Shown: one piece after another, positions 27,068 through 61,713 of the stretch
Layout: each line of letters begins with the position of its first letter
Numbering within the stretch: position 1 is the stretch's first letter
IMG/VR virus record: IMGVR_UViG_3300029581_000002
Strand: one strand, 5' to 3'
Length of the DNA stretch: 64,000 bases
Source: a virus
Lineage: Duplodnaviria > Heunggongvirae > Uroviricota > Caudoviricetes
Position numbers and translations under genes: made by a program
The notes under the pieces: model-generated
Database searches by the model: none
What the model saw: the letters and a program-made list of their open reading frames with translations, nothing else
What the model was told of the DNA's origin: nothing

Positions 27068-28525
27068 TTATTTGTTGTCTTTCTTCTCCGTAGAATAGTC
27101 CTTACGGTCGAGTTCCCACTGATACTCACACATCTGAGTGATTGCTTCAAGCTTCTCTGTACCCAGAACGAGTTTGAGAGCATTTACCAATCTTTCAGCC
27201 GGAGTTTCCACAACAGCTTTCTTGGATGCAAGTCCAAGTTGACGTTGATAAGATTCAACGCTAGCTTTGATATGGAACGATGTTACATGGGTTTCTTCCG
27301 TAAAGATAAGTTTGGATTTGGTTGATTCAACGATTTCAGCCATAAATGCCGGAGCAATTTCAGCTTCTTGAATGTAGTTACATACTTCACTCAAATCATC
27401 GTCGATTGTATATCCTTCTTCAGCGGTGAAGGTAGAACGGATGAATTTCTCCGCAGTTTCAGCGTCCAGACAGTCCATGGTAATCACAGAGCCGATTCTC
27501 TTACCTCTTAAGAAGGTAGGTTCAATCAATTCAATGTGATTAGTAGTGAACAAGGTGATTACGTTCATGTCTTTGGTATCACCACCGTCCAGAGTATTCA
27601 GGATGTCTTGCATAGCAGCATCTCTGTTACCTCTAGTTACTTGGTCAATATCTTCAACAAATACGACAACACCATGACCCGAACGGTCAACAACTTTACA
27701 CATGCGCAGAGTTTCTGCAAGAAGAGAAGGATTCTTCAAATACACGAATGACCAGCCGTTTGTTACAGCATCTTTAGCCAGCTTAAATGCCAGCAAGGTC
27801 TTACCTGTACCATATTTACCTTCCAGCAAACAACCATACTTCAATGGAATACCTTTAGCCAGACATTTCTCTGGATACAAGATTCTTGAACGTAGTGGTT
27901 GCAATTCAAATTCAGTCTTCTTAGAAAGAACCATGAATTGTTTCTCAATGCCGGCAAGTGTCATGATAGTAGGTTCAGACAGATTGCTGATTTCCAAAGC
28001 CTGGTTTTTGTAGATAGATTCTGATGCCAATAGCTCTTTAGTTCTGTCAACAATGTCATCAATTAATGACTGGTATTTGAACTGGCATTGTCCCTTAATA
28101 AGGAGCAAATGACGGTCATTGTCATAGTTGATGTTAATTTCAGAATCTTCTCCCAATTCTTCAAGGCTAATTTTACCAAACGGAACTTTGGTACGAGAAC
28201 CGTCTGCCAGAACAACGTCTACGGTATCAATGTTGCTGTTTCCAGAAGGACTGTTATCCTCCTTACTAACGGCAGAACCGAAGATTTCATTGATTGCTCT
28301 GTTCAACTGATATACACCGTCTGGTTTCCAACAAAGCAGCGAGTATTTGAAACTTGCCATTTTCTTGGACTGTTTGATTTCACCTTCGATGAATCCCAGA
28401 GCATCAGCATACTTCACATTGCTTTGGAGCACTTCAATCATTCTCTGTTTCTGAGTTTCCTCGTACTTGTTAACTCTCTGCTTAATAGCAGCTGTAGTTC
28501 CTTGCGGAATAATGTTCTTTGCCAT
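27068..28525 (-). CDS. AAA family ATPase
   Basis: Walker A GKYGTGKT, Walker B VVFVEDID and an SRH-like NHIELIEPTFLRGKRIG. A 230-aa N-terminal domain precedes the ATPase domain. Confidence 0.6.
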   Translation of the reverse strand: MAKNIIPQGTTAAIKQRVNKYEETQKQRMIEVLQSNVKYADALGFIEGEIKQSKKMASFKYSLLCWKPDGVYQLNRAINEIFGSAVSKEDNSPSGNSNIDTVDVVLADGSRTKVPFGKISLEELGEDSEININYDNDRHLLLIKGQCQFKYQSLIDDIVDRTKELLASESIYKNQALEISNLSEPTIMTLAGIEKQFMVLSKKTEFELQPLRSRILYPEKCLAKGIPLKYGCLLEGKYGTGKTLLAFKLAKDAVTNGWSFVYLKNPSLLAETLRMCKVVDRSGHGVVVFVEDIDQVTRGNRDAAMQDILNTLDGGDTKDMNVITLFTTNHIELIEPTFLRGKRIGSVITMDCLDAETAEKFIRSTFTAEEGYTIDDDLSEVCNYIQEAEIAPAFMAEIVESTKSKLIFTEETHVTSFHIKASVESYQRQLGLASKKAVVETPAERLVNALKLVLGTEKLEAITQMCEYQWELDRKDYSTEKKDNK

Positions 28526-28528
28526 TAC

Positions 28529-28801
28529 TTAATTAGGTTTATTAATCTTATTTACTTCTTTAATGATTGCCTCACAATTCTCTCTTGTTGTAGTTAAACA
28601 ACCAAGTTGAATAATAGAACCGTCTTGAGTGATAGTCAGGTTCTTCTCTTCGATTGTTTCCCTACACAAACCTCCTCTGATAATTCTTTTAATGAGTGGA
28701 AAGGGTAATATAGTATTCTTACAGAATATCATATTCTTGCCTTCCACATAAATGACATCGTAGCCGTCAATGCTACCTACTACCTTACTCATTCGATTCA
28801 A
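28529..28801 (-). CDS. hypothetical protein
   Basis: 90-aa ORF. Confidence 0.35.
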   Translation of the reverse strand: MNRMSKVVGSIDGYDVIYVEGKNMIFCKNTILPFPLIKRIIRGGLCRETIEEKNLTITQDGSIIQLGCLTTTRENCEAIIKEVNKINKPN

Positions 28802-28890: not shown

Positions 28891-28985
28891 GAATGTTTAT
28901 ATCCGCTCACAATTAACAGTTCTCAAAGAGTAGTGTTGTTAGTGACTTCATGATAAATTCTATTTTAAACTGAAATAATTAGTAG

Positions 28986-29057
28986 TTGGGCTACCAGGAT
29001 TCGAACCTGGGCTACAAGAGCCAAAACCTTGTGTGACTACCACTACACCATAGCCCA
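28986..29057 (-). tRNA. tRNA-Gln(TTG)
   Basis: U1-A72 acceptor TGGGCTA/TAGCCCA as in bacterial tRNA-Gln, anticodon stem CAAGG/TCTTG with loop TTTTGGC, T arm CCAGG TTCGAAT CCTGG. Confidence 0.65.
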
Positions 29058-29078
29058 GTAAAAGGAGTCCGAAGACTC

Positions 29079-30146
29079 CTAAACTAACTTATCGAATATC
29101 ATGGGCTGTATCGACATCCATAAATTTGCTAGCATTTCTCGCTCTGCGTCAGATGCTTCATCCCAATGTGATACGTACAATTTCTCCGTTCGTTCATTCC
29201 TATAAGGAACCTTAAATGAACGGTTAATGCGTACACTGTGTGCGAATAGGTCTTTGTCGAAATCAATAGCCCTAAGCGTCTTCTGGAAATCGTTGAACTT
29301 ATTATTAGGGTCATCGACATCCCTAACAGACATTCCAGAAGGAAACGGGCCGTTACCATGCCTTGTTATATAAGGACGAGTTACATAACAAGTTTGGATT
29401 TCTTTACGTATACCTGCTTTCCGCAACAGCTCGTAAGCGTTTTGTGAAGTTGTATTAGACGGAGTACAATAAGGCATTATGCCGAATCTTTGGTCAAGCA
29501 ATATTCCCTGTGAACCTTCAAACACTAGGTTATCATAATTCAACAAGCAATCTTCATTAACCGTACCTGTATGTAAGAAATAAGCATGTGCTAACCTACA
29601 CCAGTTGTCTAGGTCTATCGAAGGATATTTACTAGACATGTTGTAATAGTTATCCACTATGGCATTTAGTTTCTCACGCAGTATGTAAGGATTCATACAA
29701 TCTACAACTGTTAAGCTGTATCCTGCCTTAACCCGGTCCAAACAAGCTTTAAACCCTGTACCTACAGTACCATGTCGTAAGTTCTCTTCGTTATTAACTT
29801 GGGAATAGACATCGAAGGGAATTACAACTTGGCAGTGAGGGTGATACTGAACAATGGGATGAACTCCCATTTTAGCTAAGTCTGCACCCTCCAACATAGA
29901 GGTAATTGGGTCTACAGTACAGTATTCGGACCAGTACGTCGGCACTCCAAGTAAGGTTCCGCTGCCAAAGTTACTAAAGGTGTGCATCATGTCTCCATGC
30001 TTTACAGTATGTCCTACTTGATGTCCACCACTAAACCTGACTACTAACACAGACTCTCGCTTACCTATGTACTTGTTACATAAGTTGTGAACTGTCTGTC
30101 CCTTACCTTCGTCTCCAAAGAATGTTCCTAATACAATACTAATCAT
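29079..30146 (-). CDS. adenylosuccinate synthetase family protein (PurA/PurZ-like, short form)
   Basis: VLGTFFGDEGKGQ (PurA P-loop GDEGKGK), FSGGHQVGHT (YQGGHNAGHT) and FEGSQGILLD...MPYCTPSNTT (FEGAQGTLLD...YPYVTSSNTT). At 355 aa it is about 75 aa shorter than cellular PurA, as phage PurZ enzymes are. Confidence 0.65.
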   Translation of the reverse strand: MISIVLGTFFGDEGKGQTVHNLCNKYIGKRESVLVVRFSGGHQVGHTVKHGDMMHTFSNFGSGTLLGVPTYWSEYCTVDPITSMLEGADLAKMGVHPIVQYHPHCQVVIPFDVYSQVNNEENLRHGTVGTGFKACLDRVKAGYSLTVVDCMNPYILREKLNAIVDNYYNMSSKYPSIDLDNWCRLAHAYFLHTGTVNEDCLLNYDNLVFEGSQGILLDQRFGIMPYCTPSNTTSQNAYELLRKAGIRKEIQTCYVTRPYITRHGNGPFPSGMSVRDVDDPNNKFNDFQKTLRAIDFDKDLFAHSVRINRSFKVPYRNERTEKLYVSHWDEASDAEREMLANLWMSIQPMIFDKLV

Positions 30147-30152
30147 TTCAGT

Positions 30153-31085
30153 TTAATAAAATTTGTCATTACTATCAGACGGCACATCTTGCCATTCCTG
30201 ACTAACAGAAGCACTAGGAGCTAAGCCTTCAACAGGCTCCTCATAGTTCTCTTTAATTGCGGTGACAATCACCTTGTCTACTTCTCCAGATGTACATGTC
30301 AATACATTCTGTCCAAGTAAAGTCTTCCAAGATTCAGCAACCCTTGAGCCATGACTGGCATTAGTAATGTGAATGTGGAATACATGGTACTGTTCCTTTG
30401 CTTTGTCAAGAGCTTCTTGACAAGTAATGGTTTTAGCACCTTTTTGATACCCTAGAACACGTTCTAAGTAACATCCCTCTACCTTATCGAGATTTGGTTC
30501 ATCTCCAATAGTAAATAAGAATCCCTTAGTGTGTCTTTCAAACCAGGAATCAGTTTCAGTATGATAACCCGCTACGATGTGAGATAGTAGATAGCTTTCA
30601 CCTCTATTACCTCCTCCTCCACCTTCAATCACGAATGACTGTAAAGTGTCAAGGATTTTAGCTGTATCAGACTCAAACTGACCAATTTGAATTGGATATC
30701 GGTCATAAACGTGGTCCCCAACTGCCATAAACATGATTTGTGAGTCACGCATACCTAGTTGAATGAGAGAGTCCATAATCTTAGGGAATTGGTCTCTAAT
30801 CATTTCATAAGGTGTGTCCATCATTGAACCAGTAACGTCTAGCGCAATGATTATCGGAGTAGAGAAAGGGTGTTCTTTAGAATCACGAGATTCACGAACA
30901 CCCACGTTAACCATTTCTTGCCTTATCTGCGTGTTATACTGCCTAACATTGTTGTTAAGCGATGCAGCAGTATTACATGCATTAATGGCATGGCTCTTAA
31001 AGAGTTCATCCCTAGTGGAGGTATATAAACCCCTACTGCCGGCCTCTACATCATAAGCAATTCTAGAATAACTACCTGCTCCCAT
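30153..31085 (-). CDS. von Willebrand factor type A (vWA) domain protein
   Basis: IIALDVTGSM is a MIDAS DxSxS motif. It lies 7 nt upstream of the PurA-like gene. Confidence 0.55.
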   Translation of the reverse strand: MGAGSYSRIAYDVEAGSRGLYTSTRDELFKSHAINACNTAASLNNNVRQYNTQIRQEMVNVGVRESRDSKEHPFSTPIIIALDVTGSMMDTPYEMIRDQFPKIMDSLIQLGMRDSQIMFMAVGDHVYDRYPIQIGQFESDTAKILDTLQSFVIEGGGGGNRGESYLLSHIVAGYHTETDSWFERHTKGFLFTIGDEPNLDKVEGCYLERVLGYQKGAKTITCQEALDKAKEQYHVFHIHITNASHGSRVAESWKTLLGQNVLTCTSGEVDKVIVTAIKENYEEPVEGLAPSASVSQEWQDVPSDSNDKFY

Positions 31086-31088
31086 AAA

Positions 31089-31469
31089 TTATTCATTTAC
31101 AGTTGCAGCAGCGTCATCTTTCACGTCATCCAAATTAATGGATTCTGATGCATCAGCGGGAAATTCTTCTGCATCGACTTGCATAGCTAGAGCAAGTTCA
31201 ATCTTTGCAACACGCAGTTTACGTGCCAATTCATGTCTTGTTCTTACCCATTCAGCCGGATTCAGTCCTTCTCCCGGATTCAAAGAGTCTCTTGATTTAA
31301 CAGCCAGGTCGTTGTGTTTGTTGATTTCTCCCTGAATGCGGAGTACTTTCAATTTACAATCCTGAACAAATCTGTCTTCCTCGATTTTAGCCAATTCATA
31401 CAGATTCTGCGCTCTTGCATCAAGTACACTTTGTCCACTCTTACTTAATTTCTCTTTAAAACTGCTCAT
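31089..31469 (-). CDS. hypothetical coiled-coil protein
   Basis: 126-aa ORF. Confidence 0.4.
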   Translation of the reverse strand: MSSFKEKLSKSGQSVLDARAQNLYELAKIEEDRFVQDCKLKVLRIQGEINKHNDLAVKSRDSLNPGEGLNPAEWVRTRHELARKLRVAKIELALAMQVDAEEFPADASESINLDDVKDDAAATVNE

Positions 31470-32431: not shown

Positions 32432-33325
32432 CTATTTATCTGGATTGGAAATCTTAGTTAGTAACTCATAAGTTGCTTGTAACTCATTAGGAATTACTAT
32501 CTTAAGTTCCAATAGTTTCTTACGTTCTTCAACTTTCCAAGTTTCACATTGTTGAGACAGGGTTTTGGCATCCAAATTGAATCTATCAACAGCTTGTTTG
32601 TAAGCCTGATTGACTTCATATTCAGAATCCTTTACCATTTTATCAATCTTGAACTTAATCTTATTAAGTCTAGCTGATATGTCTCTGTGTTTCTGCTGTA
32701 ATGCAAAGAATGTATTCTCTACCTTATCGCTACTAACAGACGGGTCATACGAGTACACGATTGTGTCAGTGCCAGAACCTTCAACCTTAGTAGGATTAGT
32801 ATAGGCATCCATTAAAGCTCTACGGGCGTTTGCAAACGGACGCATTGGATGAATATACTTACCAATAGCAGATGCTTCTGCTTCTAGTCTGTAATATTCC
32901 ATACGTTCTGCAATGCTCAATGAAGCAATTGCTTCCTCTTCGGTAAGGATATGACCCTTAATCGGGGTGTCCAACTTGAATCCAGCTACATCCGTAGCAT
33001 ATACATCCCAAGTGTACCTGTTAATAATTTCAAGTTCTTCTTCTCTAGCCTTAATAGCTTCACGAATCCATGCGCAGAAGGCATTCATATTAGCAACTTC
33101 TTGAAGTAATGTAGGTACATTATCAAGATATGCCTCATTTCTACCTGTCTTTACAGTCCTGGAGTTACCTTCACTTAACAAGCTAATATTGACATTCACA
33201 AACCCTACAGAATCTAAAGCTTGTCTATTAGATTCCACTGTCTCCTTAGCTATATTAGCCAGGTGATTGGCAGAAGTTTGGGTTAATCCCTTCTCGCCAA
33301 AGAATACTTTGTTACATTCTTTCAT
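32432..33325 (-). CDS. hypothetical protein
   Basis: 297-aa ORF. Confidence 0.45.
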   Translation of the reverse strand: MKECNKVFFGEKGLTQTSANHLANIAKETVESNRQALDSVGFVNVNISLLSEGNSRTVKTGRNEAYLDNVPTLLQEVANMNAFCAWIREAIKAREEELEIINRYTWDVYATDVAGFKLDTPIKGHILTEEEAIASLSIAERMEYYRLEAEASAIGKYIHPMRPFANARRALMDAYTNPTKVEGSGTDTIVYSYDPSVSSDKVENTFFALQQKHRDISARLNKIKFKIDKMVKDSEYEVNQAYKQAVDRFNLDAKTLSQQCETWKVEERKKLLELKIVIPNELQATYELLTKISNPDK

Positions 33326-33723: not shown

Positions 33724-33775
33724 AATTCTAATAATTAGGTTAATAATGATTTTCGCAAACTCTTATTAGCCAGCG

Positions 33776-33863
33776 CGGAGAGTGCTGGATTCGAACCAGC
33801 GGAACCCTTTTGAGGTTCGGTCCCTTAGCAGGGGACTGGTTTAAGCCACTCACCCAACTCTCC
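33776..33863 (-). tRNA. tRNA-Ser(GCT)
   Basis: Type II: acceptor GGAGAGT, anticodon stem GTCCC/GGGAC with loop CTGCTAA, long variable arm, T arm GCTGG TTCGAAT CCAGC. Confidence 0.7.
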
Positions 33864-33950: not shown

Positions 33951-35912
33951 TTACTTTACAGGAGGAAAATTATCACCTTTAGCTGGTGATTCTTCTGGCT
34001 TCTTGCCAGTGATTATTTGCTTAAGCGAATCTGCAATGGGCAAATTGCGAGCAATTTCCAAGCTTGGAGCAAGATTCTTAGCCATATTAGCCATGAACTG
34101 CCCAGCAGTATTGGAATCACCATACACAGTAACATTACCAAGCTGGATATGTTCAAACACCTTAGCGTTGGCTTCAGCAACTTCTTTCCACCTGTCGGTC
34201 ATTGCATATTGAACGATTGCTTCAGGATGCATACCTGATTTAATCATATGTTCAACTGCAAGAGCCGGAGCCATTTCCATTGCCTGTTTCTGTTCAGCTT
34301 CTGCCATTAAAGATGCTTTCTTACCTTCAGCTTCAGCAAGAAGTTTCTTCTTGGTACCTTCAGCTTCTGCTTCCAGTTGCATCTTAGTAGCATTTGCTTT
34401 AGCTTCTGCTGCTTTCAAGATTTTAGCTGCTTCCGCTTCTGCTTCAAGAATGGCTACACTCTTAACAGCTTCTGCTTCAATTTTAGCTTTCTCTTTGGCT
34501 TTCTCGGCAGGTATAATTACTTCAGCTTTAAGCTTAGCTTCTTCAGCTTTAGCTTTAGCTTCGTTAACTTCCACCTGACGTTCTTGCTCTGTTTTAGCAA
34601 CTGCCATTTGAGCTTCAACTTTAGAAGTACCAGCTACTCTTTCTGCTTCAGCTTTAGCTTTCTCTGCTTCTCCCTTAGCTTTGGAAACTTCAATAGTAGC
34701 TTTCTGTTCAGCTACTCCTGCTGCTTTCTCTGCTTCAGCTGCCTTTTGACGGGCTTCTGATTCATACTGTGCAGTTTTAGCTTCCTTTTCCTGCTGTGCT
34801 TTAACAGTTTCAGCTTCTTGGTTTTGTGCTGCTACTGCCATACGAACTTCCTTCTCTGCTTCTGCTTCTGCCTTAGCGGCTTCAGCTTTGGCAGTAAATT
34901 CTGCTTCTTTAGCAGTTGCATAAGCTTGCTGCTCTGCAATCTTAGCAGCTCTTAATGCTTCTTGCTCGGCAACTTTGGATGCTTCTTCAGTTTGGGCTGT
35001 AGCCACACCAATTTCACGTTCCTTTCTTTGCTCTGCAACAGCAATTTGCTGCTCCTTATGCTGCTCGGCCAATTGAGTTTCTTTCTCTTTAGTGGTCTTA
35101 GCAATAGCAACTTCTTTCTCCCTGTTAGTTTCAGCCACTATAGTTTCTTGCTCCTTAGTAGCTGCTGCAATTGCAATCTCCTTCTCTCTCGTAGTTTGAG
35201 CTATCTGGATTGCTCCTTTCTTCTCTTCTTCTGCGATATCAGCTTGTGATTGCGCTCTTGCTTTAGTCTCTTCTTTCTTACCAAGATTATCAATATATTG
35301 AGCAGCATCTTGAATGTCACTGATATTGATATTCATCAGATAAAGACCAAGTTTGTTCAATTCTGTATTGATATTGTCTCTAGCTTGAGCTAGGAACTTG
35401 TCTCTGTCAGAGTTAAGCTCTTCAATAGTCATCGAAGCAATAACAAGCCTCATCTGACCATAAACAATATCTGAAATCAAACTTTCTTTAACGTCATCAT
35501 CAGCACCTAGTAAGCGATTAGCAGCATTCTGCATAATCAGCGGTTCTTGGCTAATAGCAACAGTTACAGTGGTAGGGATAGTTACACGAATATTTTGAGC
35601 TGACAAAGCATTCTTCAATACAAGATTCAATTGAATCGGCTGCATTGACATTACTTCATAACCCTGTATAATCGGCCATACAAAAGCTGCACCACCATGA
35701 TAAACTTTGGCAGTTTTAATTTCAACTTCTCTGTCAACCAGATTACCTTTAGCGTCGCGTTCGCTAACTTTCTCTTTGTGAGAGCCTGTTTTACCATAAA
35801 CTACCAACAATTCGTCAGATTTACATTTACGGTAGCGGGATAGAATCCCAATGATAGTGATGATTGCAACTAGTACAACTACACCAACGATAATTAATGA
35901 TGTCATTTCCAT
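33951..35912 (-). CDS. flotillin/SPFH (band-7) family membrane protein
   Basis: N-terminal TM helix, an SPFH-like domain, then about 300 aa of A/E/K-rich coiled coil (EAEAEK repeats) as in YqiK/FloT. Confidence 0.6.
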   Translation of the reverse strand: MEMTSLIIVGVVVLVAIITIIGILSRYRKCKSDELLVVYGKTGSHKEKVSERDAKGNLVDREVEIKTAKVYHGGAAFVWPIIQGYEVMSMQPIQLNLVLKNALSAQNIRVTIPTTVTVAISQEPLIMQNAANRLLGADDDVKESLISDIVYGQMRLVIASMTIEELNSDRDKFLAQARDNINTELNKLGLYLMNINISDIQDAAQYIDNLGKKEETKARAQSQADIAEEEKKGAIQIAQTTREKEIAIAAATKEQETIVAETNREKEVAIAKTTKEKETQLAEQHKEQQIAVAEQRKEREIGVATAQTEEASKVAEQEALRAAKIAEQQAYATAKEAEFTAKAEAAKAEAEAEKEVRMAVAAQNQEAETVKAQQEKEAKTAQYESEARQKAAEAEKAAGVAEQKATIEVSKAKGEAEKAKAEAERVAGTSKVEAQMAVAKTEQERQVEVNEAKAKAEEAKLKAEVIIPAEKAKEKAKIEAEAVKSVAILEAEAEAAKILKAAEAKANATKMQLEAEAEGTKKKLLAEAEGKKASLMAEAEQKQAMEMAPALAVEHMIKSGMHPEAIVQYAMTDRWKEVAEANAKVFEHIQLGNVTVYGDSNTAGQFMANMAKNLAPSLEIARNLPIADSLKQIITGKKPEESPAKGDNFPPVK

Positions 35913-35925
35913 CTTGAAATTGGTA

Positions 35926-36447
35926 TTAATCTATGTATAATTTATTGTCTTCGTATTTACGAATCGTTACTGGCTCATTGACAGGATATATCTTCTTATT
36001 AAGAGATACAACTTCTACTTCTCTCAATGCTCCACTTATGTTCACGGATGCCAAATGGCGCCCTTCACCTAAATGTACATAGATAGTAGCAGTTCTGCCA
36101 ACTAAGTTAGTCTTCGGTTCGTCTTTAGGAAGGTTCTGCAATTTCATACAGAACTTATATAAATGATACAGCATAAATACAAATACAAGACCTATAAAGA
36201 ATCCTATTAACCAATCAATCCAGGTTACTTCATAACCTAATAATTGCTTAATAGATGTCCATCCTCCGAATCCCATGAAGAAATGGATAAATCCTTTAAA
36301 GGATACAACATCACTGACATCAAAATCAGCATCACCATCAAAGTCTACATCGACATCGAACTCCCCAGCAACCCATGATATTATGAATTGTAGGATAAAT
36401 ATACCATAGGCGATGCCTCCTAAGATATAATACAAGTTATTGTCCAT
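35926..36447 (-). CDS. NfeD-like membrane protein (partner of SPFH/flotillin)
   Basis: Multi-TM N-terminal region plus a C-terminal soluble beta-rich domain (..RTATIYVHLGEGRHLASVNISG..VVSL). It sits immediately upstream of the flotillin gene, as in yqiJ-yqiK. Confidence 0.5.
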   Translation of the reverse strand: MDNNLYYILGGIAYGIFILQFIISWVAGEFDVDVDFDGDADFDVSDVVSFKGFIHFFMGFGGWTSIKQLLGYEVTWIDWLIGFFIGLVFVFMLYHLYKFCMKLQNLPKDEPKTNLVGRTATIYVHLGEGRHLASVNISGALREVEVVSLNKKIYPVNEPVTIRKYEDNKLYID

Positions 36448-53555: not shown

Positions 53556-54038
53556 TTATTCCTTGCAATATGCAATGACATTTACGTTCATTTGGCTGCC
53601 GTCCCTTGCGACGCTTTCAAACGTTTCTATCGCCTTTGCGGTTACTTCCGTACCTTGTAAATCTGCAAGACATTCCGCTATTGTCTTATTTTCAAACATA
53701 TTGAAAATACATTTGTCTTTGTCCGCCTCTGGAAGAATGTCAACCGGTGTAATACGCTTGTTGTTTTCACGGTCGTTGAAAGACCGGAACAAAGAGTTTA
53801 TAGATACGTTTCTTGCCACTCCATTGACTTCTACGGCAACTTGAAAGAACGTATTGCCATTTACAACACCCTTTGTAATAGTTCCGTTGAACTCGTTAAT
53901 TTCAGCGGGAAATTTCAATTTGTCGCCTACCTTGATAGAATCAGGATTAACACCCAAACGGTTTAAAGCCGCCGCAATTTCGTTTTTGCTTGCTTTCGGT
54001 AACTTCTTGTTAACTTCTTGTAATTCTGCTAAATTCAT
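53556..54038 (-). CDS. hypothetical protein; first gene of the minus-strand module
   Basis: 160-aa ORF starting next to the divergent regulatory region. It is GC-richer than its surroundings. Confidence 0.4.
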   Translation of the reverse strand: MNLAELQEVNKKLPKASKNEIAAALNRLGVNPDSIKVGDKLKFPAEINEFNGTITKGVVNGNTFFQVAVEVNGVARNVSINSLFRSFNDRENNKRITPVDILPEADKDKCIFNMFENKTIAECLADLQGTEVTAKAIETFESVARDGSQMNVNVIAYCKE

Positions 54039-54347
54039 AGTTTAATAATTTATTAGTGAAACAATATAGAACGGGCTTATTTACCCGTTCTTGATTTAAT
54101 TTTATACGCCTGCAATTAGTTCTTTATATTCTGACATTGTGATATAACAACCTGTAAGATTAACACGAACTAAACCGTTTGATAAAATAGTGTATATAAG
54201 CTAATAATTTTAAAATGAATATTATAAAGCAAAACCAAATGATATAAATCTTTTGATTTTCTCCAAACATGGGTGAGGGGTGTGAAGGGTAACACGACTG
54301 TCGTATCCGCAATATACACAAATCTTGCAATATTCACCTAGCATCCG

Positions 54348-54559
54348 AGTTGGCAATATATAATATGACAACCCACCCCGGGAGTGGGAGGGGTGTGATT
54401 TTGAGCACCCGTACTTGTGAGTTGGCAATATATATTAATTTCTATTCATCTTACTAATTGCAAGCAAGCCCCGAAGGGGCGCAGATTGCCACAGCACGTC
54501 ATGAAGTTCCGAGTTGGCAATATACTTAATATTAACTGTGAATTTGAGTTGGCAATATA
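54348..54559. promoter_or_regulatory. divergent regulatory region with four direct repeats GAGTTGGCAATATA plus GC-rich hairpins
   Basis: Exact 14-mers at 54348, 54419, 54511 and 54546. There are extra GCAATAT cores at 54309 and 54327. A GCCCCGAAGGGGC hairpin lies at 54468..54480. Confidence 0.6.
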
Positions 54560-54691
54560 TAATATATATTAATAATTATATTACCATTTGGTAATATTGA
54601 AATATATAACTAATTTTGTATTGTCAAATTAAATAATAATATATTTGCGAACTTAAATCAGAATTATTAACAATAACTAAAATTTATACCA

Positions 54692-54946
54692 ATGGCTAAA
54701 GAAGTTAAAGACTTAACAAGTAAAGAAGTAGATGAAGTAAAAATATTAAAGACTAGTTTGTCAGAATGTCCAGTAAATACTGATTTAGGATGTAATGAAT
54801 CAAAGGCAACTAACTGGGTGAAGTTAGACAATAAAACAACAGATGTAAAATTAGAATTATTAAATAAATTGCAAGACGGACTAGCTAATGGAGCTGGTAT
54901 TGAATATTTAATGCAACTATCTTGCATTTATAATAACATTCGCTAA
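54692..54946 (+). CDS. hypothetical protein
   Basis: 84-aa ORF, first plus-strand gene. Confidence 0.4.
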   Translation: MAKEVKDLTSKEVDEVKILKTSLSECPVNTDLGCNESKATNWVKLDNKTTDVKLELLNKLQDGLANGAGIEYLMQLSCIYNNIR

Positions 54947-54948
54947 TA

Positions 54949-55323
54949 ATGAGACATATTGATAGAATTAATAAGCAGTATGAAGAGAAGGAAGTTAAAT
55001 TGCTATATGATAAAGCTGTAGCGTTAATGAATCTTCTTAGTGATGAGGAATATGAACAAGTAATTACAGATAATGCAGATATATTTAAATTAGCATCTCA
55101 TCCCGAGAGGGGTGAGTTCTATTTACAAGATAAGCACAACTTAGTCCAGATTGTAGACATATTTAGTAAATTCATTAAAACTAAAGGCCTATCTAAGGAC
55201 GAATTTAAAATAATGACTCTAGATGAAGTTAAAGAGTATATGGTTGATGTTATTAATGATATCACATCATTCGAACCAGATGAGCTATTCACGATAGTAA
55301 AGAACTTAGAGAAACTTCAATGA
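54949..55323 (+). CDS. hypothetical protein
   Basis: 124-aa ORF. Confidence 0.4.
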   Translation: MRHIDRINKQYEEKEVKLLYDKAVALMNLLSDEEYEQVITDNADIFKLASHPERGEFYLQDKHNLVQIVDIFSKFIKTKGLSKDEFKIMTLDEVKEYMVDVINDITSFEPDELFTIVKNLEKLQ

Positions 55324-55631
55324 AACTAGAACAGATACCAGGTGATTATGATAATGTAGACCAGAGAGCTCTAGAATTATTAAAGACTAATGACTATGAA
55401 TTAGCAGAGTATATGAGGGATTATATAAAGGAATTATATGCTAACATACATATGAGAGACTTCTATATTAGAAACCTTAAGGATGAAATACTTCATACAC
55501 TCAAACATAGAGACTCTATAAGTGGTGAGGAGCTACTACAAATACTAAATAAGGTAGCTCCATGGGATATGGAATATGATGGCAGATGGCAAACTAGAGA
55601 CTATTTAGCAAGAGCAAAGGCTAATCAATGA
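55320..55631 (+). CDS. hypothetical protein
   Basis: 103-aa ORF with an ATGA overlap with the previous gene. Confidence 0.4.
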   Translation: MKLEQIPGDYDNVDQRALELLKTNDYELAEYMRDYIKELYANIHMRDFYIRNLKDEILHTLKHRDSISGEELLQILNKVAPWDMEYDGRWQTRDYLARAKANQ

Positions 55632-55734
55632 TAACACAAGAAGTAGAATTAGTAGAAGAAGCATTATATAGGAATGCGTACATATATCCAGGCTGGAAGT
55701 ATTGCCTACCTGGATTACTAAAGACAATATATTT

Positions 55735-55971
55735 ATGACAGGAGAAGAAATTATAGTAACATTTAAAGAGCCTTGGTATAATGATTATACCAGACGATTA
55801 TACACTCAATTATCTGAACAAATGATTAGAGAAGAGATTGAGAGAGTGCATAAAGAACCAATCATTACTAATACTGCATTTGATATAGCAGTAGACAAGG
55901 CTTTCTTAGAGTTACTGCATGACAACAAGGATTTAATTAATATCACAGAACGATACAAGAACCATGAGTAA
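55735..55971 (+). CDS. hypothetical protein
   Basis: The ORF track starts at a TTG (55702). The first ATG is at 55735 (MTGEEIIV..). Confidence 0.35.
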   Translation: MTGEEIIVTFKEPWYNDYTRRLYTQLSEQMIREEIERVHKEPIITNTAFDIAVDKAFLELLHDNKDLINITERYKNHE

Positions 55972-56026
55972 AATAGCAACAGAATTAGAAGCTAAGACTA
56001 TGGGGGGGGACTCTCTCGGTAATTGA
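55964..56026 (+). CDS. leader ORF MSKIATELEAKTMGGDSLGN ending just after the G8 tract; in -1 register to the downstream ORF
   Basis: Manual translation. Deleting one G from G8 (56002..56009) fuses it in frame to the ORF that is open from 55989 to 56609. Confidence 0.4.
   Translation: MSKIATELEAKTMGGDSLGN
56002..56009 (+). repeat. G8 homopolymer at the leader/main-ORF junction
   Basis: Direct count of eight G. Confidence 0.9.
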
Positions 56027-56177
56027 TAATAAGTGCTGTACTAAAGCTAGAGCACTTGAATTAGGATGTCAGATTAAAAGTGGATTTAGTTATACTGATA
56101 ATCAGTTAGTAGAGTTAGAAGGTATAGAGGCAGCTATAACTGCTCCAAATGTAATCCTTCATTATGGTTGGCAGGAT

Positions 56178-56609
56178 ATGCCAATTAATAATATACAGCA
56201 ATTTAGAGTACGTTTCTCATTTGTTAATGAGAGTTCAGTGAATGGAGAGCCGTTTAAGTATTCTGACAATACTATGTACTTTACAATTACTCCAAGATTA
56301 GAGCAAGGAGAACGAACGTACACTAAGACTTTAGCAAATCCTCTTAAATATTACTTAGAGAAATTAGCACCTTCTAACCAAGACCCATATAATACACCTG
56401 TTTGGATACGTTTTGAGGGATACATGATGCTTAAGCAAGTGTCTCAAATTACATTAGCAGTAGATTCTCAATCTGAGAATTGGGCAGAAGGAGTAACATT
56501 TCCTTCATCTGGAAAGTGGGTCAAAATGAATAATTCTGGTAGAGTACTTAGATTTACTGGTGGGGAAACAGACCTAAACATAGAACTGTATACAGCATCA
56601 GCGCAATGA
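56178..56609 (+). CDS. hypothetical protein; frame open upstream to 55989 with no ATG, likely the main body of a G-tract-controlled gene
   Basis: 143 aa from the first ATG. The upstream in-frame 63 codons carry no start codon. Confidence 0.45.
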   Translation: MPINNIQQFRVRFSFVNESSVNGEPFKYSDNTMYFTITPRLEQGERTYTKTLANPLKYYLEKLAPSNQDPYNTPVWIRFEGYMMLKQVSQITLAVDSQSENWAEGVTFPSSGKWVKMNNSGRVLRFTGGETDLNIELYTASAQ

Positions 56610-56803
56610 TTAAAGTAACTGATAATAAAGAAGTAAAGGAAACAGTCCTAGCAGGACTTAAAAGGAATAAAGAGAAGTATGGTAAGAAGTATTGTCCATG
56701 CTCTTTAGTAAGAGATGAAGATACAGTATGTATGTGTAAAGAGTTTAGGGAAATGGAAGAAGGGACTTGCCATTGCCAACTTTATGTTAAAACTAAAGAC
56801 TAA
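56606..56803 (+). CDS. ferredoxin-thioredoxin-reductase catalytic-subunit-like Cys-rich protein
   Basis: YCPC(x11)CMC(x11)CHC mirrors the CPC...CHC arrangement of the FtrC/FTR catalytic chain. Confidence 0.4.
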   Translation: MIKVTDNKEVKETVLAGLKRNKEKYGKKYCPCSLVRDEDTVCMCKEFREMEEGTCHCQLYVKTKD

Positions 56804-56808
56804 TAATT

Positions 56809-56979
56809 ATGGATGAATTAAAGAACCAATTAGCACAGTATTTATGTAGCCAAATTCATAATGGCACTAAGGATTTGATTGAATTAATTGAATCAGAAGA
56901 CCTTATTAATGAACAGTGGTATAAGAACTGGAAGGAAGAGATGAGAATCTTACTACAGGAGAAGTAATTATGATAATAC
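56809..56979 (+). CDS. small hypothetical protein (56 aa)
   Basis: Manual ORF MDELKNQLAQYLCSQIHNGTKDLIELIESEDLINEQWYKNWKEEMRILLQEK. Confidence 0.3.
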
Positions 56980-57209
56980 TTAGTGGAAATTGTCCTAGGC
57001 ATCATAATGCCATTATGTTGGAACTTACAGACTTTGATGACAGTAAAATTTCCTATCTAGCTAGAATATCTAGAGGACATCATGTTGATACTCTGTTAGT
57101 TCCTAGGGAATATAAAGATACATTTGAATCTACAGAACTATATAAAGTATTACTGCCTAATATTAGTATAGGTGATGTACAATTTGCTAAAATATACTAT
57201 TATGATTGA
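56970..57209 (+). CDS. hypothetical protein
   Basis: 79-aa ORF. Confidence 0.35.
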   Translation: MIILSGNCPRHHNAIMLELTDFDDSKISYLARISRGHHVDTLLVPREYKDTFESTELYKVLLPNISIGDVQFAKIYYYD

Positions 57210-57432
57210 CGTTAGAAAGACATTAGAGAATTTACATCAGATACTTCCAAACTTATCAATAGAGGACTTATTTAGAGTTCTTGATAACATAGTAGAGATT
57301 CCACAATTTAACGTAGGACAGACAACTACTATACGTAGAGATAATAGTGGCTGGAGACCATATGACACAGGTACATTTATATCTTATGCTAGTAATGGAA
57401 TAACACTTAGTGATGAAGGAACTTGTAAATAA
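57172..57432 (+). CDS. hypothetical protein
   Basis: 86-aa ORF. Confidence 0.35.
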   Translation: MMYNLLKYTIMIDVRKTLENLHQILPNLSIEDLFRVLDNIVEIPQFNVGQTTTIRRDNSGWRPYDTGTFISYASNGITLSDEGTCK

Positions 57433-57619
57433 CTGGAATGAGAAACATCCCGAATACGTATTGGTACACGGGATGTATTCTTATGTAGACAATGGACAAT
57501 CTAAGGATATGCACATGCTTACTATCTTTAATAAGGATAATGAATGTGTATGTGAATATAAAGGAGAAGATTTTATTAAATTATATAATACATTAGAAGA
57601 AGAATGGGAAAGCGATTAA
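57410..57619 (+). CDS. hypothetical protein
   Basis: 69-aa ORF. Confidence 0.35.
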   Translation: MMKELVNNWNEKHPEYVLVHGMYSYVDNGQSKDMHMLTIFNKDNECVCEYKGEDFIKLYNTLEEEWESD

Positions 57620-58284
57620 TTAATGTTGATGAAGTGGAGGAGATAGTACCTGTCCTAGTAGGCAAATTACTAGAGAACAATTTGATAACGGAGGAACAAG
57701 CGGACCAAATCATCTGTGCAATCTTTAATGATAACGATAGGCTAAATGAAATTAGGGAATTAAATCCAGATTATGATATTAGTATGCATAAGCTGAATGT
57801 TTGCGTGGGAGATAGTCAGTATAGACTAGTGTATTGTATATATGTAGAGCATAAAGAATCTGGGATAAGTGTGTATAGGGACAAGGACTTCGATGTACAG
57901 GAAGTGATAAACAGACTTCCATCTAAATTCACAATAGAGAAAGAACAAGAGTTGCTTCCTAAAGGAGTAAATATAAAGATTCATAAATACTCTATTAACT
58001 GTGCAGTAAGTCTATTTAGCAACGCTGCTGACTACTTTAAAGACCATACAGTAAATATAACTATTAGTTATCCATTAAAGAATCCGTATACATTCACTGC
58101 TAAATGCCGCAATTTGAATGATTTAATAAATGAAATAACCCTTGCATATAGAAGGATTTACGAAGAAGAGAAGGAGAATCCAGGTAAGTATGGAATATGG
58201 GGACATCATATAGAAGATTTATGGCTTGAGAAAGCTACTCTCGATATAGAGACTGGTAATGTTAAAATACTTGTAGGTAGTTAA
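57604..58284 (+). CDS. hypothetical protein
   Basis: 226-aa ORF. Confidence 0.45.
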   Translation: MGKRLINVDEVEEIVPVLVGKLLENNLITEEQADQIICAIFNDNDRLNEIRELNPDYDISMHKLNVCVGDSQYRLVYCIYVEHKESGISVYRDKDFDVQEVINRLPSKFTIEKEQELLPKGVNIKIHKYSINCAVSLFSNAADYFKDHTVNITISYPLKNPYTFTAKCRNLNDLINEITLAYRRIYEEEKENPGKYGIWGHHIEDLWLEKATLDIETGNVKILVGS

Positions 58285-58285
58285 T

Positions 58286-58567
58286 ATGGATAATAAATTA
58301 AATGTACAGAAACTAGGATATGAAGTAGGAGAACCTATGTGGGTTCATTGGGACGATAGATACGTATGGCGTGGAGGACATATACTAGGAAAATGCCCAG
58401 ATGAGAATTTGATAACCACAGTGGGCTACTTGGCATATATGGATGATAAATCAATAATATTGGGAAGAGGTATTGAGAATCATTGTGATGAGGACGGTAC
58501 TCGCAGAGTAAAAGATACAATACACATACCAATGAGCTTAGTAGCTAGTTTTGGAAGTTTTGATTGA
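58286..58567 (+). CDS. hypothetical protein
   Basis: 93-aa ORF. Confidence 0.4.
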   Translation: MDNKLNVQKLGYEVGEPMWVHWDDRYVWRGGHILGKCPDENLITTVGYLAYMDDKSIILGRGIENHCDEDGTRRVKDTIHIPMSLVASFGSFD

Positions 58568-58573
58568 TGAACT

Positions 58574-59428: not shown

Positions 59429-59443
59429 TAAATTAATATAAAT

Positions 59444-59704: not shown

Positions 59705-59724
59705 ATGAATTAATATGAATTAAT

Positions 59725-60093: not shown

Positions 60094-60094
60094 T

Positions 60095-61697: not shown

Positions 61698-61713
61698 TAA
61701 GTTAATATAATAA

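What the first reader, a model, noticed from the sequence alone, without database searches (positions are those of the whole stretch)
29079..31085. Short PurA-family (PurZ-like) adenylosuccinate-synthetase homolog coupled to a vWA protein
- Clear PurA family signatures are present (GDEGKGQ P-loop, GGHQVGHT, FEGSQGILLD...PSNTT).
- At 355 aa it lacks about 75 residues of cellular PurA, the same size class as phage PurZ. PurZ enzymes make the 2-aminoadenine (Z base) precursor from dGMP.
- No MazZ or DatZ-like gene was recognised in this window.
- The gene sits 7 nt downstream of a vWA (MIDAS) protein and near an AAA ATPase.
- Possible functions are Z-genome or other purine-modification chemistry, or nucleotide-pool manipulation.
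Basis: partly seen in the sequence, partly recalled or inferred. Interest (0 to 1): 0.6.

Follow-up and report, generated by a model that had tools for sequence, protein, structure and literature searches.

The report
PurA-like enzyme with vWA partner
This gut-phage gene is neither a Z-base (PurZ) enzyme nor an ordinary adenylosuccinate synthetase: it belongs to a widespread, uncharacterised branch of that family that always sits next to a metal-binding vWA protein and, in many Bacteroidota, lies inside NAD/ADP-ribose recycling operons, which suggests an unknown purine-nucleotide reaction used in phage-host conflict.

Summary
A 355-aa PurA-family ORF (29079-30146, minus strand) lies 6 nt downstream of a 310-aa protein whose vWA/MIDAS fold I confirmed by structure prediction.

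The PurZ reading fails:
- The protein keeps Asp13, which is Ser in every phage PurZ.
- It scores 22 bits against the PurZ model (cut-off 300).
- It falls outside the PurZ/PurZ0 clade (100% bootstrap).
- No MazZ, DatZ or DpoZ-like gene is in the window.

It is not a canonical PurA either:
- It scores about 100 bits against PurA equivalog models (cut-offs about 400).
- The aspartate-loop residues T300, T301 and R303 are replaced, as are the IMP-phosphate ligands T129 and R143.
- The phosphotransfer residues D13, K16, H41 and Q224 are invariant.

It belongs to a third, monophyletic clade with the motifs TRHG and FQxxxR. This clade includes mycobacteriophage Bxz1 gp250, Rhizobium and Vibrio phages, thousands of metagenomic phage proteins and at least 339 Bacteroidota chromosomal loci. 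The vWA gene is directly upstream in every locus that holds upstream DNA. A third partner precedes it, either a small helical protein (as here) or a pseudokinase.

In 57 of 80 bacterial loci the module sits among NAD/ADP-ribose genes (NrtR, Prs-like, NAMPT, NADAR, Macro, ARH, Tpt1, PARG).

The most likely function is a GTP-driven purine-C6 ligation with a non-aspartate acceptor. The chemistry is untested.

The parts
29079..30146 (-). PurA-superfamily enzyme, 355 aa, of the 'TRHG' clade. It is not PurZ and not canonical PurA. The exact protein is NCBI UVX36522.1.
   Evidence: Pfam PF00709 E=9e-35. It scores below every PurA and PurZ equivalog cut-off. The model has pLDDT 92.5, and its best structural matches are bacterial PurA at TM 0.72. 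Residue table; tree; database identity.
30153..31085 (-). vWA-fold MIDAS protein, 310 aa. It is the obligate upstream partner of the PurA-like gene and is probably translationally coupled to it (6-nt gap).
31089..31469 (-). Small protein of 126 aa, the third member of the module. No fold or secondary-structure prediction was made for it. It is homologous to the 111-aa protein that precedes the vWA gene in Flavobacterium and Chryseobacterium operons.
   Evidence: It is conserved upstream of the vWA gene in phage relatives down to about 45% PurA identity. hhalign against the bacterial 111-aa family gives probability 96.5%, E=8e-10 over 105 columns. It is mutually exclusive with the pseudokinase partner: 56 versus 16 loci, none with both.
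29060..29079 (-). Hairpin GGAGTC-TTCG-GACTCC followed by TTTT, overlapping the stop codon. It is a possible terminator or processing site that closes the three-gene unit just before tRNA-Gln (28985-29057).
   Evidence: Read directly from the sequence. tRNA-Gln comes from ARAGORN. The consensus scan did not flag it because it has only four T.
27068..28801 (-). Classical AAA ATPase (485 aa, 27068-28525) with a 90-aa ORF (28529-28801). It is a lineage-specific neighbour, listed for context only and not part of the conserved module.
   Evidence: PF00004 E=1e-13 and phrog_10440. It is present only beside close relatives (PurA-like identity 65% or more), and 5 kb away in L061. It is absent from all other phage and bacterial loci. 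A terminator-like site lies at 27062-27037.

Best explanation
The gene encodes an active enzyme of a distinct, previously uncharacterised clade of the PurA (adenylosuccinate synthetase) superfamily. It works as a fixed module with the upstream vWA/MIDAS protein and a third, non-enzymatic partner. Here that partner is the 126-aa protein; in other lineages it is a pseudokinase.

Proposed mechanism. As in PurA, a nucleoside triphosphate (probably GTP) phosphorylates the C6 oxygen of a 6-oxopurine nucleotide, using D13, K16, H41 and Q224. An amine then displaces the phosphate. Both substrate pockets are remodelled. The 5'-phosphate ligands T129 and R143 are gone, and the aspartate loop TTGRRRR has become (F/Y)Q-x-x-x-R, with a new invariant His in TRHG. 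So the purine substrate is probably not plain IMP and the amine is probably not free L-aspartate. The vWA protein probably acts as an obligate subunit or adaptor. R143 of canonical PurA comes from the second subunit of the homodimer, and its loss fits a changed partner.

Biological role. The role is tied to NAD/ADP-ribose and RNA-repair-type nucleotide metabolism in phage-host conflict. It is not synthesis of a Z genome.

Shown versus inferred. Shown: clade membership, residue pattern, synteny and genomic contexts. Inferred: catalytic activity, GTP use, substrates, complex formation and physiological role.
For: Clade.
- An NJ tree puts the window, metagenomic phage, Bacteroidota, Bxz1, TDDLMA and TM30 sequences in one split at 100/100 bootstrap. 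PurA and PurZ+PurZ0 each also reach 100/100.
- tblastn with the window protein hits 238 phage records, 202 of them Mycobacterium phages (Bxz1-like). S-2L PurZ hits 201 records with a different organism make-up (mainly Arthrobacter, Vibrio, Microbacterium).

Enzyme is probably active.
- D13, K16, H41, Q224 and T239 are invariant in all 52 clade members tabulated.
- There are 46 invariant columns in the 45-sequence family alignment.

Remodelled pockets.
- N38 to Q, T129 to V/C, R143 to G/H/P, V273 to H, T300 to F/Y/W, T301 to Q (invariant).
- R303 is variable and R304 is hydrophobic.
- The D333 equivalent is kept in 27/27 bacterial, 6/6 environmental and 9/15 phage members.

Obligate partner.
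- The vWA gene is directly upstream in every phage locus with upstream DNA, in Bxz1, Vibrio TDDLMA and Rhizobium TM30, and in 79/80 bacterial loci.
- The two genes are separated by 6 nt here. In several other loci the ORF coordinates overlap by 1-4 nt.

Third partner.
- The 126-aa protein matches the bacterial 111-aa protein (hhalign probability 96.5%).
- The alternative partner is a pseudokinase homologous to Bxz1 gp247 (hhalign probability 95%).
- The two are mutually exclusive.

Context.
- 57/80 bacterial loci carry at least one NAD/ADP-ribose gene and 52 carry at least three.
- The Flavobacterium operon reads NrtR, Prs-like, PARG, small protein, vWA, PurA-like, NADAR, Macro-ARH, Tpt1, ARH, 2OG oxygenase, phosphoesterase, NAMPT.
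- Environmental phage loci add an R2K ATP-grasp, an ATP-dependent ligase, HAD_SAK_2, an Rv2179c-like exoribonuclease and an HD protein.
- TM30 has a ComF-like PRTase and a Nudix nearby, and L002 has an isochorismatase-family protein.
- In the window the triad lies between tRNA genes.
Against: - No biochemical data exist for any member. Public records simply call them 'adenylosuccinate synthetase'.
- The aspartate-loop alignment is gapped and ambiguous. One Arg and an invariant Gln remain and could still bind aspartate.
- T129 to V/C is a modest change.
- The NAD/ADP-ribose association comes mostly from Flavobacterium and Chryseobacterium, plus a few Bacteroidales and other loci. It is therefore not many independent observations. 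Dyadobacter and Saprospiraceae modules stand alone.
- No NAD/ADP-ribose gene was found in the 64-kb window.
- Physical interaction between the vWA protein and the enzyme is inferred from synteny only.
- The D333 equivalent is not universal among phage members, so the phosphate donor is uncertain.
Confidence: 0.45

Rival explanations
1. It is an ordinary auxiliary adenylosuccinate synthetase. The phage boosts AMP synthesis from IMP, aspartate and GTP during infection, and the vWA neighbour is functionally unrelated or merely regulatory.
For: The PurA fold and all phosphotransfer residues are kept. The protein is closer to bacterial PurA than to PurZ in sequence and structure. The Asp of the guanine-recognition motif is kept in the window protein. 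An invariant Gln and one Arg remain in the aspartate loop. Databases annotate it this way.
Against: It scores about 100 bits against four PurA equivalog models whose cut-offs are 395-700. T300, T301, R303, T129 and R143 are all replaced across the whole clade, which instead has its own invariant residues Q38, H273 and Q301. Strict, ancient synteny with a vWA protein and a third partner has no rationale for a housekeeping step. In bacteria it sits in NAD/ADP-ribose operons, not purine operons. Those Bacteroidota are expected to carry a canonical purA as well; this rests on general knowledge and was not tested here.
Confidence: 0.2
2. It is a PurZ-type enzyme that makes the dZ precursor from dGMP, so the phage has a 2-aminoadenine genome.
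For: The size class is similar to PurZ, and the E. coli ~340-410 segment is deleted as in PurZ. PHROG 1211, which it hits, is labelled '2-aminooxy adenylosuccinate synthetase'. Only 64 kb of a roughly 185-kb genome could be inspected.
Against: Asp13 is kept, whereas it is Ser in 100% of 147 phage PurZ, and in phiVC8 PurZ the S14D change abolishes substrate selectivity (papers). NF038379 scores 22 bits against a cut-off of 300. PurZ structures are more distant matches than PurA. The clade is separate at 100% bootstrap, with 15-22% identity to PurZ. The PurZ ATP-pocket residues are absent, and the TT..RR aspartate loop that PurZ keeps is lost. There is no MazZ, DatZ, DUF550, DutZ, NDT or PolA in the window. 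The same clade lives in bacterial chromosomes, where a Z genome is implausible.
Confidence: 0.03
3. The PurA-like protein is not a metabolic enzyme here. It is a nucleotide-dependent switch, or a client, within an AAA ATPase-vWA remodelling or assembly system like the MoxR-vWA chaperone pairs.
For: A vWA protein with a MIDAS site plus a nearby AAA ATPase resembles known chaperone-cochaperone pairs, which the jumbo-phage review describes. The vWA protein has a conserved C-terminal tail after a disordered linker that could be a docking motif. In some lineages the third partner carries a possible J domain with an HPD motif. That Pfam match is weak (E=0.007).
Against: The AAA ATPase is of the classical PF00004 type, not MoxR, and is absent from most loci that carry the pair. 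The purine-site and catalytic residues (D13, H41, Q224, SNTT) are invariant, which is not expected of a mere switch. PADLOC models give no match for the triad.
Confidence: 0.1

Closest known systems
Adenylosuccinate synthetase PurA (EC 6.3.4.4; Pfam PF00709; e.g. E. coli 1CG0, H. pylori 6ZXQ)
   Same: Same fold (Foldseek E=7e-21, TM 0.72). Same P-loop GDEGKG, GGHxxGH, EGxQG and SNTT motifs. D13, K16, H41, Q224 and T239 are all kept. The Asp of the TKLD guanine motif is kept in the window protein.
   Different: Identity is 20-24%. Scores are far below the equivalog cut-offs. The aspartate loop and two IMP 5'-phosphate ligands are replaced, there is a new invariant His (TRHG) and Gln, and about 70 residues (E. 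coli 340-410) are deleted. It is always paired with a vWA protein, and in bacteria it lies in NAD/ADP-ribose operons rather than purine operons.
PurZ / PurZ0 (succino-amino-deoxyadenylate synthase of Z-genome phages; S-2L 7ODX, phiVC8 6FM1, PurZ0 7VF6)
   Same: Same superfamily, a phage-encoded short form of similar length, and the same C-terminal deletion relative to bacterial PurA.
   Different: Asp rather than Ser at the diagnostic position. Only 15-22% identity. A separate clade. The PurZ HMM scores 22/300 bits. PurZ keeps the TT..RR aspartate loop and lacks the middle helical region, while this protein does the reverse. No Z-cluster neighbours were found.
Mycobacteriophage Bxz1 gp250 and other phage proteins annotated 'PurA-like' or '2-aminooxy adenylosuccinate synthetase' (PHROG 1211 in part)
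   Same: Same clade. Same motif changes (WQGKFR, TRHG, Q38, C129). The same upstream vWA homolog is present (gp248, 35% identity, E=3e-28).
   Different: Bxz1 gp250 is full length (442 aa) and keeps the C-terminal segment and the GP motif. Its third partner is a kinase-like protein (gp247) instead of the 126-aa protein. None of these proteins has a tested function, so this is kinship, not an explanation.
NAD/ADP-ribose salvage and processing operons (NrtR-prs-nadV regulons; the phage NARP1 pair of a Prs-like and a NAMPT-like enzyme, recalled from memory)
   Same: In Flavobacterium, Chryseobacterium and some Bacteroidales the module is embedded between NrtR, Prs-like and PARG on one side and NADAR, Macro-ARH, Tpt1 and NAMPT on the other. 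nrtR-prs-nadV operons are documented (PMC2330246).
   Different: Neither the paper on NrtR regulons nor the review of viral NAD/ADP-ribose systems mentions a PurA-like enzyme; the review's only mention of vWA is as a chaperone in ARG-centred systems. The window itself has no NAD/ADP-ribose gene. Equating the Prs-like and NAMPT genes with NARP1 is my recollection of Osterman et al. 2024 and was not tested.
vWA-AAA+ chaperone pairs (MoxR-vWA, BchI-BchD, NorQ-NorD)
   Different: The ATPase is not MoxR-type and is not conserved with the pair. The conserved partner of the vWA protein is the PurA-like enzyme.

Membership tests
PurZ / PurZ0 | Ser replaces the catalytic Asp13 of PurA (100% of 147 phage PurZ) | tested here: not met
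   The window protein has GDEGKG, and Asp is present in all 52 clade members tabulated. The criterion comes from PMC12884076.
PurZ / PurZ0 | Scores above the curated cut-off of NCBIfam NF038379 (300 bits) | tested here: not met
   22.2 bits, and only residues 192-264 match.
PurZ / PurZ0 | Falls inside the PurZ+PurZ0 clade | tested here: not met
   In the NJ tree PurZ+PurZ0 forms a split at 100/100 that excludes the window protein. tblastn with the window protein and with S-2L PurZ returns record sets of different organism make-up.
PurZ / PurZ0 | ATP/dATP-type donor pocket (F295 and Y298 of phiVC8 PurZ; no Asp of the NKxD-like motif) | tested here: not met
   The window protein has SHWD where E. 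coli has TKLD and the PurZ have LNFCNY / LNFAQY. The residue roles come from the preprint read.
PurZ / PurZ0 | Genome also encodes dATP/dGTP-clearing enzymes (DatZ, MazZ, DUF550, DutZ, DmtZ) and usually DpoZ | tested here: inconclusive
   None was found in the 64-kb window or in 10 kb beyond its left end.
PurZ / PurZ0 | Virion DNA contains 2-aminoadenine instead of adenine | not testable with these tools
   This needs LC-MS of nucleosides or digestion with A-sensitive restriction enzymes.
Canonical PurA (adenylosuccinate synthetase) | PurA fold with the phosphotransfer residues D13, K16, H41 and Q224 | tested here: met
   Model pLDDT 92.5, Foldseek TM 0.72 to bacterial PurA. The residues are invariant.
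Canonical PurA (adenylosuccinate synthetase) | Scores above the equivalog cut-offs (TIGR00184 395 bits, NF002223 402 bits) | tested here: not met
   91.6 and 100.8 bits. The matches stop near profile position 283-295.
Canonical PurA (adenylosuccinate synthetase) | L-aspartate loop T300, T301, R303, R305 (GATTGRRRR) | tested here: not met
   The loop is replaced by NDFQKTL-R. Q301 is invariant, R303 is variable, and one Arg is kept. The loop alignment is gapped, so the exact equivalences are uncertain.
Canonical PurA (adenylosuccinate synthetase) | IMP 5'-phosphate ligands N38, T129, T239 and R143 (the last from the second subunit) | tested here: not met
   N38 to Q, T129 to V/C and R143 to G/H/P, with T239 kept. 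The residue roles come from my knowledge of the E. coli structures.
Canonical PurA (adenylosuccinate synthetase) | Catalyses IMP + Asp + GTP to adenylosuccinate and complements a purA mutant | not testable with these tools
   This needs an enzyme assay and genetic complementation.
vWA / MIDAS domain proteins (the partner at 30153-31085) | vWA (Rossmann-like alpha/beta) fold | tested here: met
vWA / MIDAS domain proteins (the partner at 30153-31085) | MIDAS motif DxSxS ... T ... D | tested here: inconclusive
   D83-V-T85-G-S87 and G194-D195-E196 are conserved (D83, S87, D195 invariant; T85 in at least 90%) across phage and bacterial members. The middle Thr could not be assigned. Metal binding is untested.
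MoxR-type AAA+ / vWA chaperone pair | MoxR-family ATPase conserved next to the vWA gene | tested here: not met
   The ATPase is a classical AAA (PF00004). It is present only beside close relatives and is absent from the other phage loci and all 80 bacterial loci.
Known anti-phage defence systems (PADLOC-DB v2) | Any component matches a PADLOC model | tested here: not met
   No hit for the PurA-like, vWA, small-protein or pseudokinase members from the phage or from two bacterial loci. Only the AAA ATPase gives weak IetA-like matches.

The most novel reading that the evidence does not exclude
The small-protein (or pseudokinase) / vWA / PurA-like triad is an unrecognised enzyme system that re-aminates or N6-derivatises 6-oxopurine nucleotides larger than IMP. 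Candidate substrates are ITP- or IDP-ribose-type products or deamino-NAD, made when immune deaminases or NAD-cleaving effectors attack the adenylate/NAD pool, or a purine on a damaged RNA end. The amine donor would not be free aspartate. Bacteroidota would use it under NrtR control to restore NAD/ADP-ribose pools. Large phages (this gut phage, Bxz1-like mycobacteriophages and others) would carry it as a counter-defence. This would be a new reaction class in the PurA superfamily and a new branch of the phage NAD-reconstitution theme.
Probability: 0.15. Interest if true: 0.85.

Novelty: new variant of a known kind. Interest (0 to 1): 0.62.

Why it matters
- Mislabelled genomes. Hundreds of phage genomes carry this gene under the label 'PurA-like' or, wrongly, '2-aminooxy adenylosuccinate synthetase', which is the PurZ name. 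They include 202 Mycobacterium phage records (Bxz1-like). Anyone predicting Z genomes from PF00709 or PHROG 1211 hits will get false positives. The Asp13/Ser test and the TRHG / FQxxxR motifs separate the groups cleanly.
- An unexplored enzyme clade. The clade keeps the phosphotransfer machinery of PurA but has rebuilt both substrate pockets. It is locked to a vWA partner across phages of Actinomycetota and Pseudomonadota hosts, metagenomic phages of unknown host, and Bacteroidota chromosomes. That pattern is typical of an enzyme with a new reaction.
- A testable link to NAD biology. Its placement among NrtR-regulated NAD/ADP-ribose recycling genes connects it to the active field of NAD-depleting immunity and phage NAD reconstitution, and gives a concrete biochemical hypothesis.
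- Ecological reach. The carrier phage is very common in human gut metagenomes: the exact protein is seen on at least 1000 contigs.

Tried and rejected
- Megablast of the 6.4-kb region against 50,697 phage records found no match, so there is no annotated close relative to lean on.
- Single-protein search for related loci returned only near-identical contigs. A family alignment was needed to reach further.
- Seven literature searches found nothing that describes a PurA-like/vWA pair. Their themes were PurZ/PurA in phages, 'PurA-like', adenylosuccinate synthetase with jumbo phage, vWA or anti-defense, RNA repair with vWA, R2K ATP-grasp, and NADAR/Tpt1/NAMPT.
- The two papers most likely to mention the pair are not held: Burroughs & Aravind 2016 (NAR) and de Souza & Aravind 2012 (Mol Biosyst). 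Prior description there cannot be excluded.
- The AAA ATPase as a third component was rejected because it is not conserved with the pair.
- The 297-aa ORF (32432-33325) as a kinase-like partner was rejected: hhalign probability 0.1%.
- Homologs of the R2K ATP-grasp, ligase, HAD, exoribonuclease, HD and pseudokinase genes were sought in the window by tblastn, and none was found.
- A vWA-PurA 'fusion' in L062 was considered as Rosetta-stone evidence and rejected. It is an in-frame deletion that removes the vWA C-terminus and the first 13 PurA-like residues, including Asp12, in a single contig.
- PADLOC gave no hit for the triad.
- Look-up of the 741-aa product at the right end of the window found nothing.
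- The first tree attempts failed: one timed out, and the Kimura distance is undefined above about 85% divergence. A Poisson-distance NJ tree was used instead.
- Model coordinates are not returned by the tools, so active-site geometry and a complex with the vWA protein could not be examined.
Full report
**What is in the window**

It matches Pfam Adenylsucc_synt at E=8.7e-35, but only over profile positions 1-277 of 416. It scores 91-101 bits against PurA equivalog models whose cut-offs are 395-402 bits. It scores 22 bits against the PurZ model, whose cut-off is 300.

The two genes are separated by TAA-actgaa-ATG, a gap of 6 nt. A 126-aa ORF (31089-31469) precedes the vWA gene. A hairpin plus TTTT follows the PurA-like stop codon, and tRNA-Gln comes directly after it. 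The three genes therefore form a compact unit between tRNA genes.

The AAA ATPase (27068-28525) belongs to the next unit downstream.

**Which phage this is**

The window carries 28 tRNA genes and replication genes. It has no close relative among deposited phage genomes.

The exact PurA-like protein is NCBI UVX36522.1, 'MAG: adenylosuccinate synthetase [Bacteriophage sp.]'. It is seen on at least 1000 contigs, typically about 185 kb long. Another window protein is found on a contig from a human gut metagenome.

**Why it is not PurZ**

- A 2026 survey reports that all 147 phage PurZ have Ser at the position of PurA Asp13, while 99% of the PurA clade keep Asp (PMC12884076).
- A 2025 preprint adds that reverting S14 to Asp in phiVC8 PurZ abolishes substrate selectivity, and that F295 and Y298 hold the adenine of ATP.
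- The window protein has Asp (GDEGKG) and has SHWD where E. coli has TKLD and the PurZ have LNFCNY.
- PDB sequence search finds only PurA entries at E of 1e-3 or better.
- Foldseek ranks bacterial PurA first (E=7e-21), then PurZ0 (4e-17), then PurZ (5e-14 to 5e-12).
- In an NJ tree with 100 bootstraps, PurZ+PurZ0, canonical PurA and the window's clade are three splits, each at 100%.
- tblastn with the window protein hits 238 phage records, 202 of them Mycobacterium phages (Bxz1-like). S-2L PurZ hits 201 records with a different organism make-up.
- No MazG, HD/YfbR, DUF550, dUTPase, NDT or PolA domain was found among the coding-strand window ORFs of 55 aa or more that were scanned. tblastn with S-2L and phiVC8 DatZ, MazZ and DpoZ found nothing.

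**Why it is not canonical PurA either**

I tabulated 52 clade members against E. coli numbering.

- Kept and invariant: D13, K16, H41, Q224 and T239.
- Changed: N38 to Q, T129 to V or C, R143 to G/H/P, and V273 to an invariant His (the TRHG motif).
- The aspartate loop GATTGRRRR becomes N-x-(F/Y/W)-Q-x-x-x-R. Gln at position 301 is invariant, and only one Arg is kept.
- The Asp of the guanine motif is kept in all bacterial and environmental-phage members and in 9 of 15 gut-phage members.

From what is known of the E. coli enzyme (my knowledge, not a tool result), T129 and R143 bind the IMP 5'-phosphate, and R143 reaches in from the other subunit of the dimer. T300, T301, R303 and R305 bind aspartate.

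So the phosphotransfer chemistry is preserved while both substrate pockets are rebuilt. The loop alignment is gapped, so the exact equivalences there are uncertain.

**The conserved module**

The vWA gene is the immediate upstream neighbour of the PurA-like gene in the following places:

- Mycobacteriophage Bxz1 (gp248 and gp250), Vibrio phage TDDLMA and Rhizobium phage TM30.
- Every IMG/VR locus that holds upstream DNA, spanning 38-100% identity.
- 79 of 80 Bacteroidota chromosomal loci. The one exception has only 34 bp of upstream sequence.

The genome scan found 339 bacterial relatives in Flavobacterium, Chryseobacterium, Dyadobacter, Saprospiraceae, Bacteroidales and others.

The third gene is one of two types.

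- A small protein. The window's 126-aa protein is homologous to the bacterial 111-aa protein (hhalign probability 96.5%, E=8e-10).
- A roughly 295-aa kinase-like protein that lacks the catalytic Asp. It is homologous to Bxz1 gp247 (probability 95%).

The two types never co-occur: 56 loci have the small protein, 16 have the pseudokinase, and none has both.

In several loci the vWA and PurA-like ORF coordinates overlap by 1-4 nt. Homing-endonuclease-like genes have inserted between them or into the vWA gene in some strains, without separating the pair.

The AAA ATPase is conserved only among close relatives.

**Context**

In Flavobacterium bizetiae (L093) the operon reads as follows:

- NrtR
- Prs-like phosphoribosyltransferase
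- microbial PARG
- 111-aa protein
- vWA
- PurA-like
- NADAR
- Macro-ADP-ribosylglycohydrolase
- Tpt1/KptA
- ADP-ribosylglycohydrolase
- 2OG-Fe(II) oxygenase
- calcineurin-like phosphoesterase
- NAMPT

Other loci add Macro, DUF4291 and SIR2. In all, 57 of 80 bacterial loci have at least one such gene and 52 have three or more. Most of these are Flavobacterium or Chryseobacterium, although a Bacteroidales MAG also has NADAR and NrtR next to the pair. Dyadobacter-type modules, with the pseudokinase, stand alone.

In environmental phage loci the neighbours are an R2K ATP-grasp, an ATP-dependent ligase, a HAD of the 'Swiss army knife' RNA-repair type, an Rv2179c-like exoribonuclease and an HD protein. 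TM30 has a ComF-like PRTase and a Nudix nearby. L002 has an isochorismatase-family gene.

No PADLOC defence model matches the triad.

**Interpretation**

The most economical reading is an active PurA-type ligase whose purine substrate and amine acceptor both differ from IMP and aspartate. It would work as a complex with the vWA protein, in nucleotide metabolism linked to NAD/ADP-ribose and RNA repair.

The clade, the residue pattern, the synteny and the contexts are shown. Activity, donor nucleotide, substrates, complex formation and role are inferred.

I give this 0.45. The rivals are a plain auxiliary PurA at 0.2, a non-enzymatic role in an AAA-vWA system at 0.1, and PurZ at 0.03. The remainder is left for something not considered.

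**Comparison with the literature**

The papers I could read do not describe this pair. They cover PurZ, jumbo phages, viral NAD/ADP-ribose systems, R2K ATP-grasp enzymes and NrtR regulons.

The 2026 PurZ paper notes 481 viral PF00709 proteins, of which only 147 are PurZ, and does not characterise the rest. Public records name clade members 'adenylosuccinate synthetase' and their partners 'hypothetical' or 'VWFA domain-containing'.

Two relevant papers were not available, so earlier mention of the pair cannot be excluded.

**Verdict**

The gene belongs to an uncharacterised, widely distributed PurA-superfamily clade with an obligate vWA partner. I rate it a new variant of a known kind, with interest 0.62.

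Noticed in passing
window 14763-48317 (e.g. 40783-40855, minus strand): ARAGORN tRNA genes. One has anticodon CTA (reported as tRNA-Pyl), i.e. an amber-suppressor type that could signal TAG recoding in part of the genome. Two overlapping calls lie on opposite strands at 33760-33863 (tRNA-Arg + / tRNA-Ser -).
   Followed up: no
window 33951-35912 and 35926-36447 (minus strand): A 653-aa SPFH/Band-7 protein (PF01145, E=1e-24) has a very long Ala/Glu/Lys-rich repeat region. It is preceded upstream by a 173-aa apparently hydrophobic (membrane-like) ORF, which recalls SPFH-NfeD pairs by position. No NfeD family match was seen. The relative L001 has Band_7 plus two TerD genes about 9 kb from its PurA-like gene.
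   Followed up: no
window 54000-61700: The coding strand switches to plus, G+C drops to 0.31-0.34, and GC skew inverts. The rest of the window is at 0.35-0.41 G+C and is coded on the minus strand.
   Followed up: no
L010-L017 (7213-8000 in L010); L002 7891-9993; L058 7193-7678; L073 7210-7977: Homing-endonuclease-like ORFs have inserted near or into the pair. In some near-identical strains a 249-aa ORF with repeated Zn-ribbon-type motifs sits between the vWA and PurA-like genes, and the PurA-like N-terminus next to it is altered (MINIVLGSFFGDCGKGQ), which looks like a co-conversion tract. In L002 the vWA gene is split into 501-aa and 161-aa ORFs.
   Followed up: partly
L062 7278-9008: A single 576-aa ORF joins vWA residues 1-249 in frame to PurA-like residues 14 onward, deleting the P-loop Asp. 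This is probably a deletion variant or an assembly artefact in one contig, not a true fusion.
   Followed up: yes
L085 5425-6312 and its homologs (alignment A5); L025 2529-3659 (Bxz1 gp247): The alternative third partner is kinase-like but lacks the catalytic Asp (HMGLNP in environmental phages, HGAITPDN in Bxz1). The environmental version begins with a possible J domain that has an HPD motif (Pfam DnaJ E=0.007, weak).
   Followed up: partly
vWA family alignment A7 (window 30153-31085): All vWA partners start with an invariant Met-Gly (MGxGxW/YS..Y). After a disordered linker they end in a short conserved tail, acidic-x-G-x-x-(K)-L/Y at the very C-terminus. The annotated start of Bxz1 gp248 is probably 12 codons too far upstream.
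   Followed up: no
window, ORFs not individually resolved: Unusual Pfam hits for a phage appear among the window ORFs: ribosomal L7/L12 C-terminal domain (6e-6), ferritin-like (4.5e-13), bactofilin (1.3e-6), and the ferredoxin-thioredoxin reductase catalytic beta chain in an ORF shorter than 120 aa (1.5e-13). The batch scan did not report which ORF carries each hit.
   Followed up: no
phage collection hits H2, H4-H6, H18, H55 and others: Many deposited phage genomes label members of this Asp13-bearing clade '2-aminooxy adenylosuccinate synthetase', which is the PurZ name attached to PHROG 1211. This is likely a systematic mis-annotation for the Bxz1-like mycobacteriophages, Rhizobium phages and some Vibrio phages.
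   Followed up: partly
L175 (10 kb beyond the left end of the window): The neighbouring genome segment encodes an anaerobic ribonucleotide reductase (NrdD with ATP-cone), NUMOD/DUF723 homing endonucleases and a PIF1/UvrD-like helicase. The 167-aa window protein used for the look-up is indexed in 10,540 blocks of the assembly collection, so this phage is extremely common.
   Followed up: no
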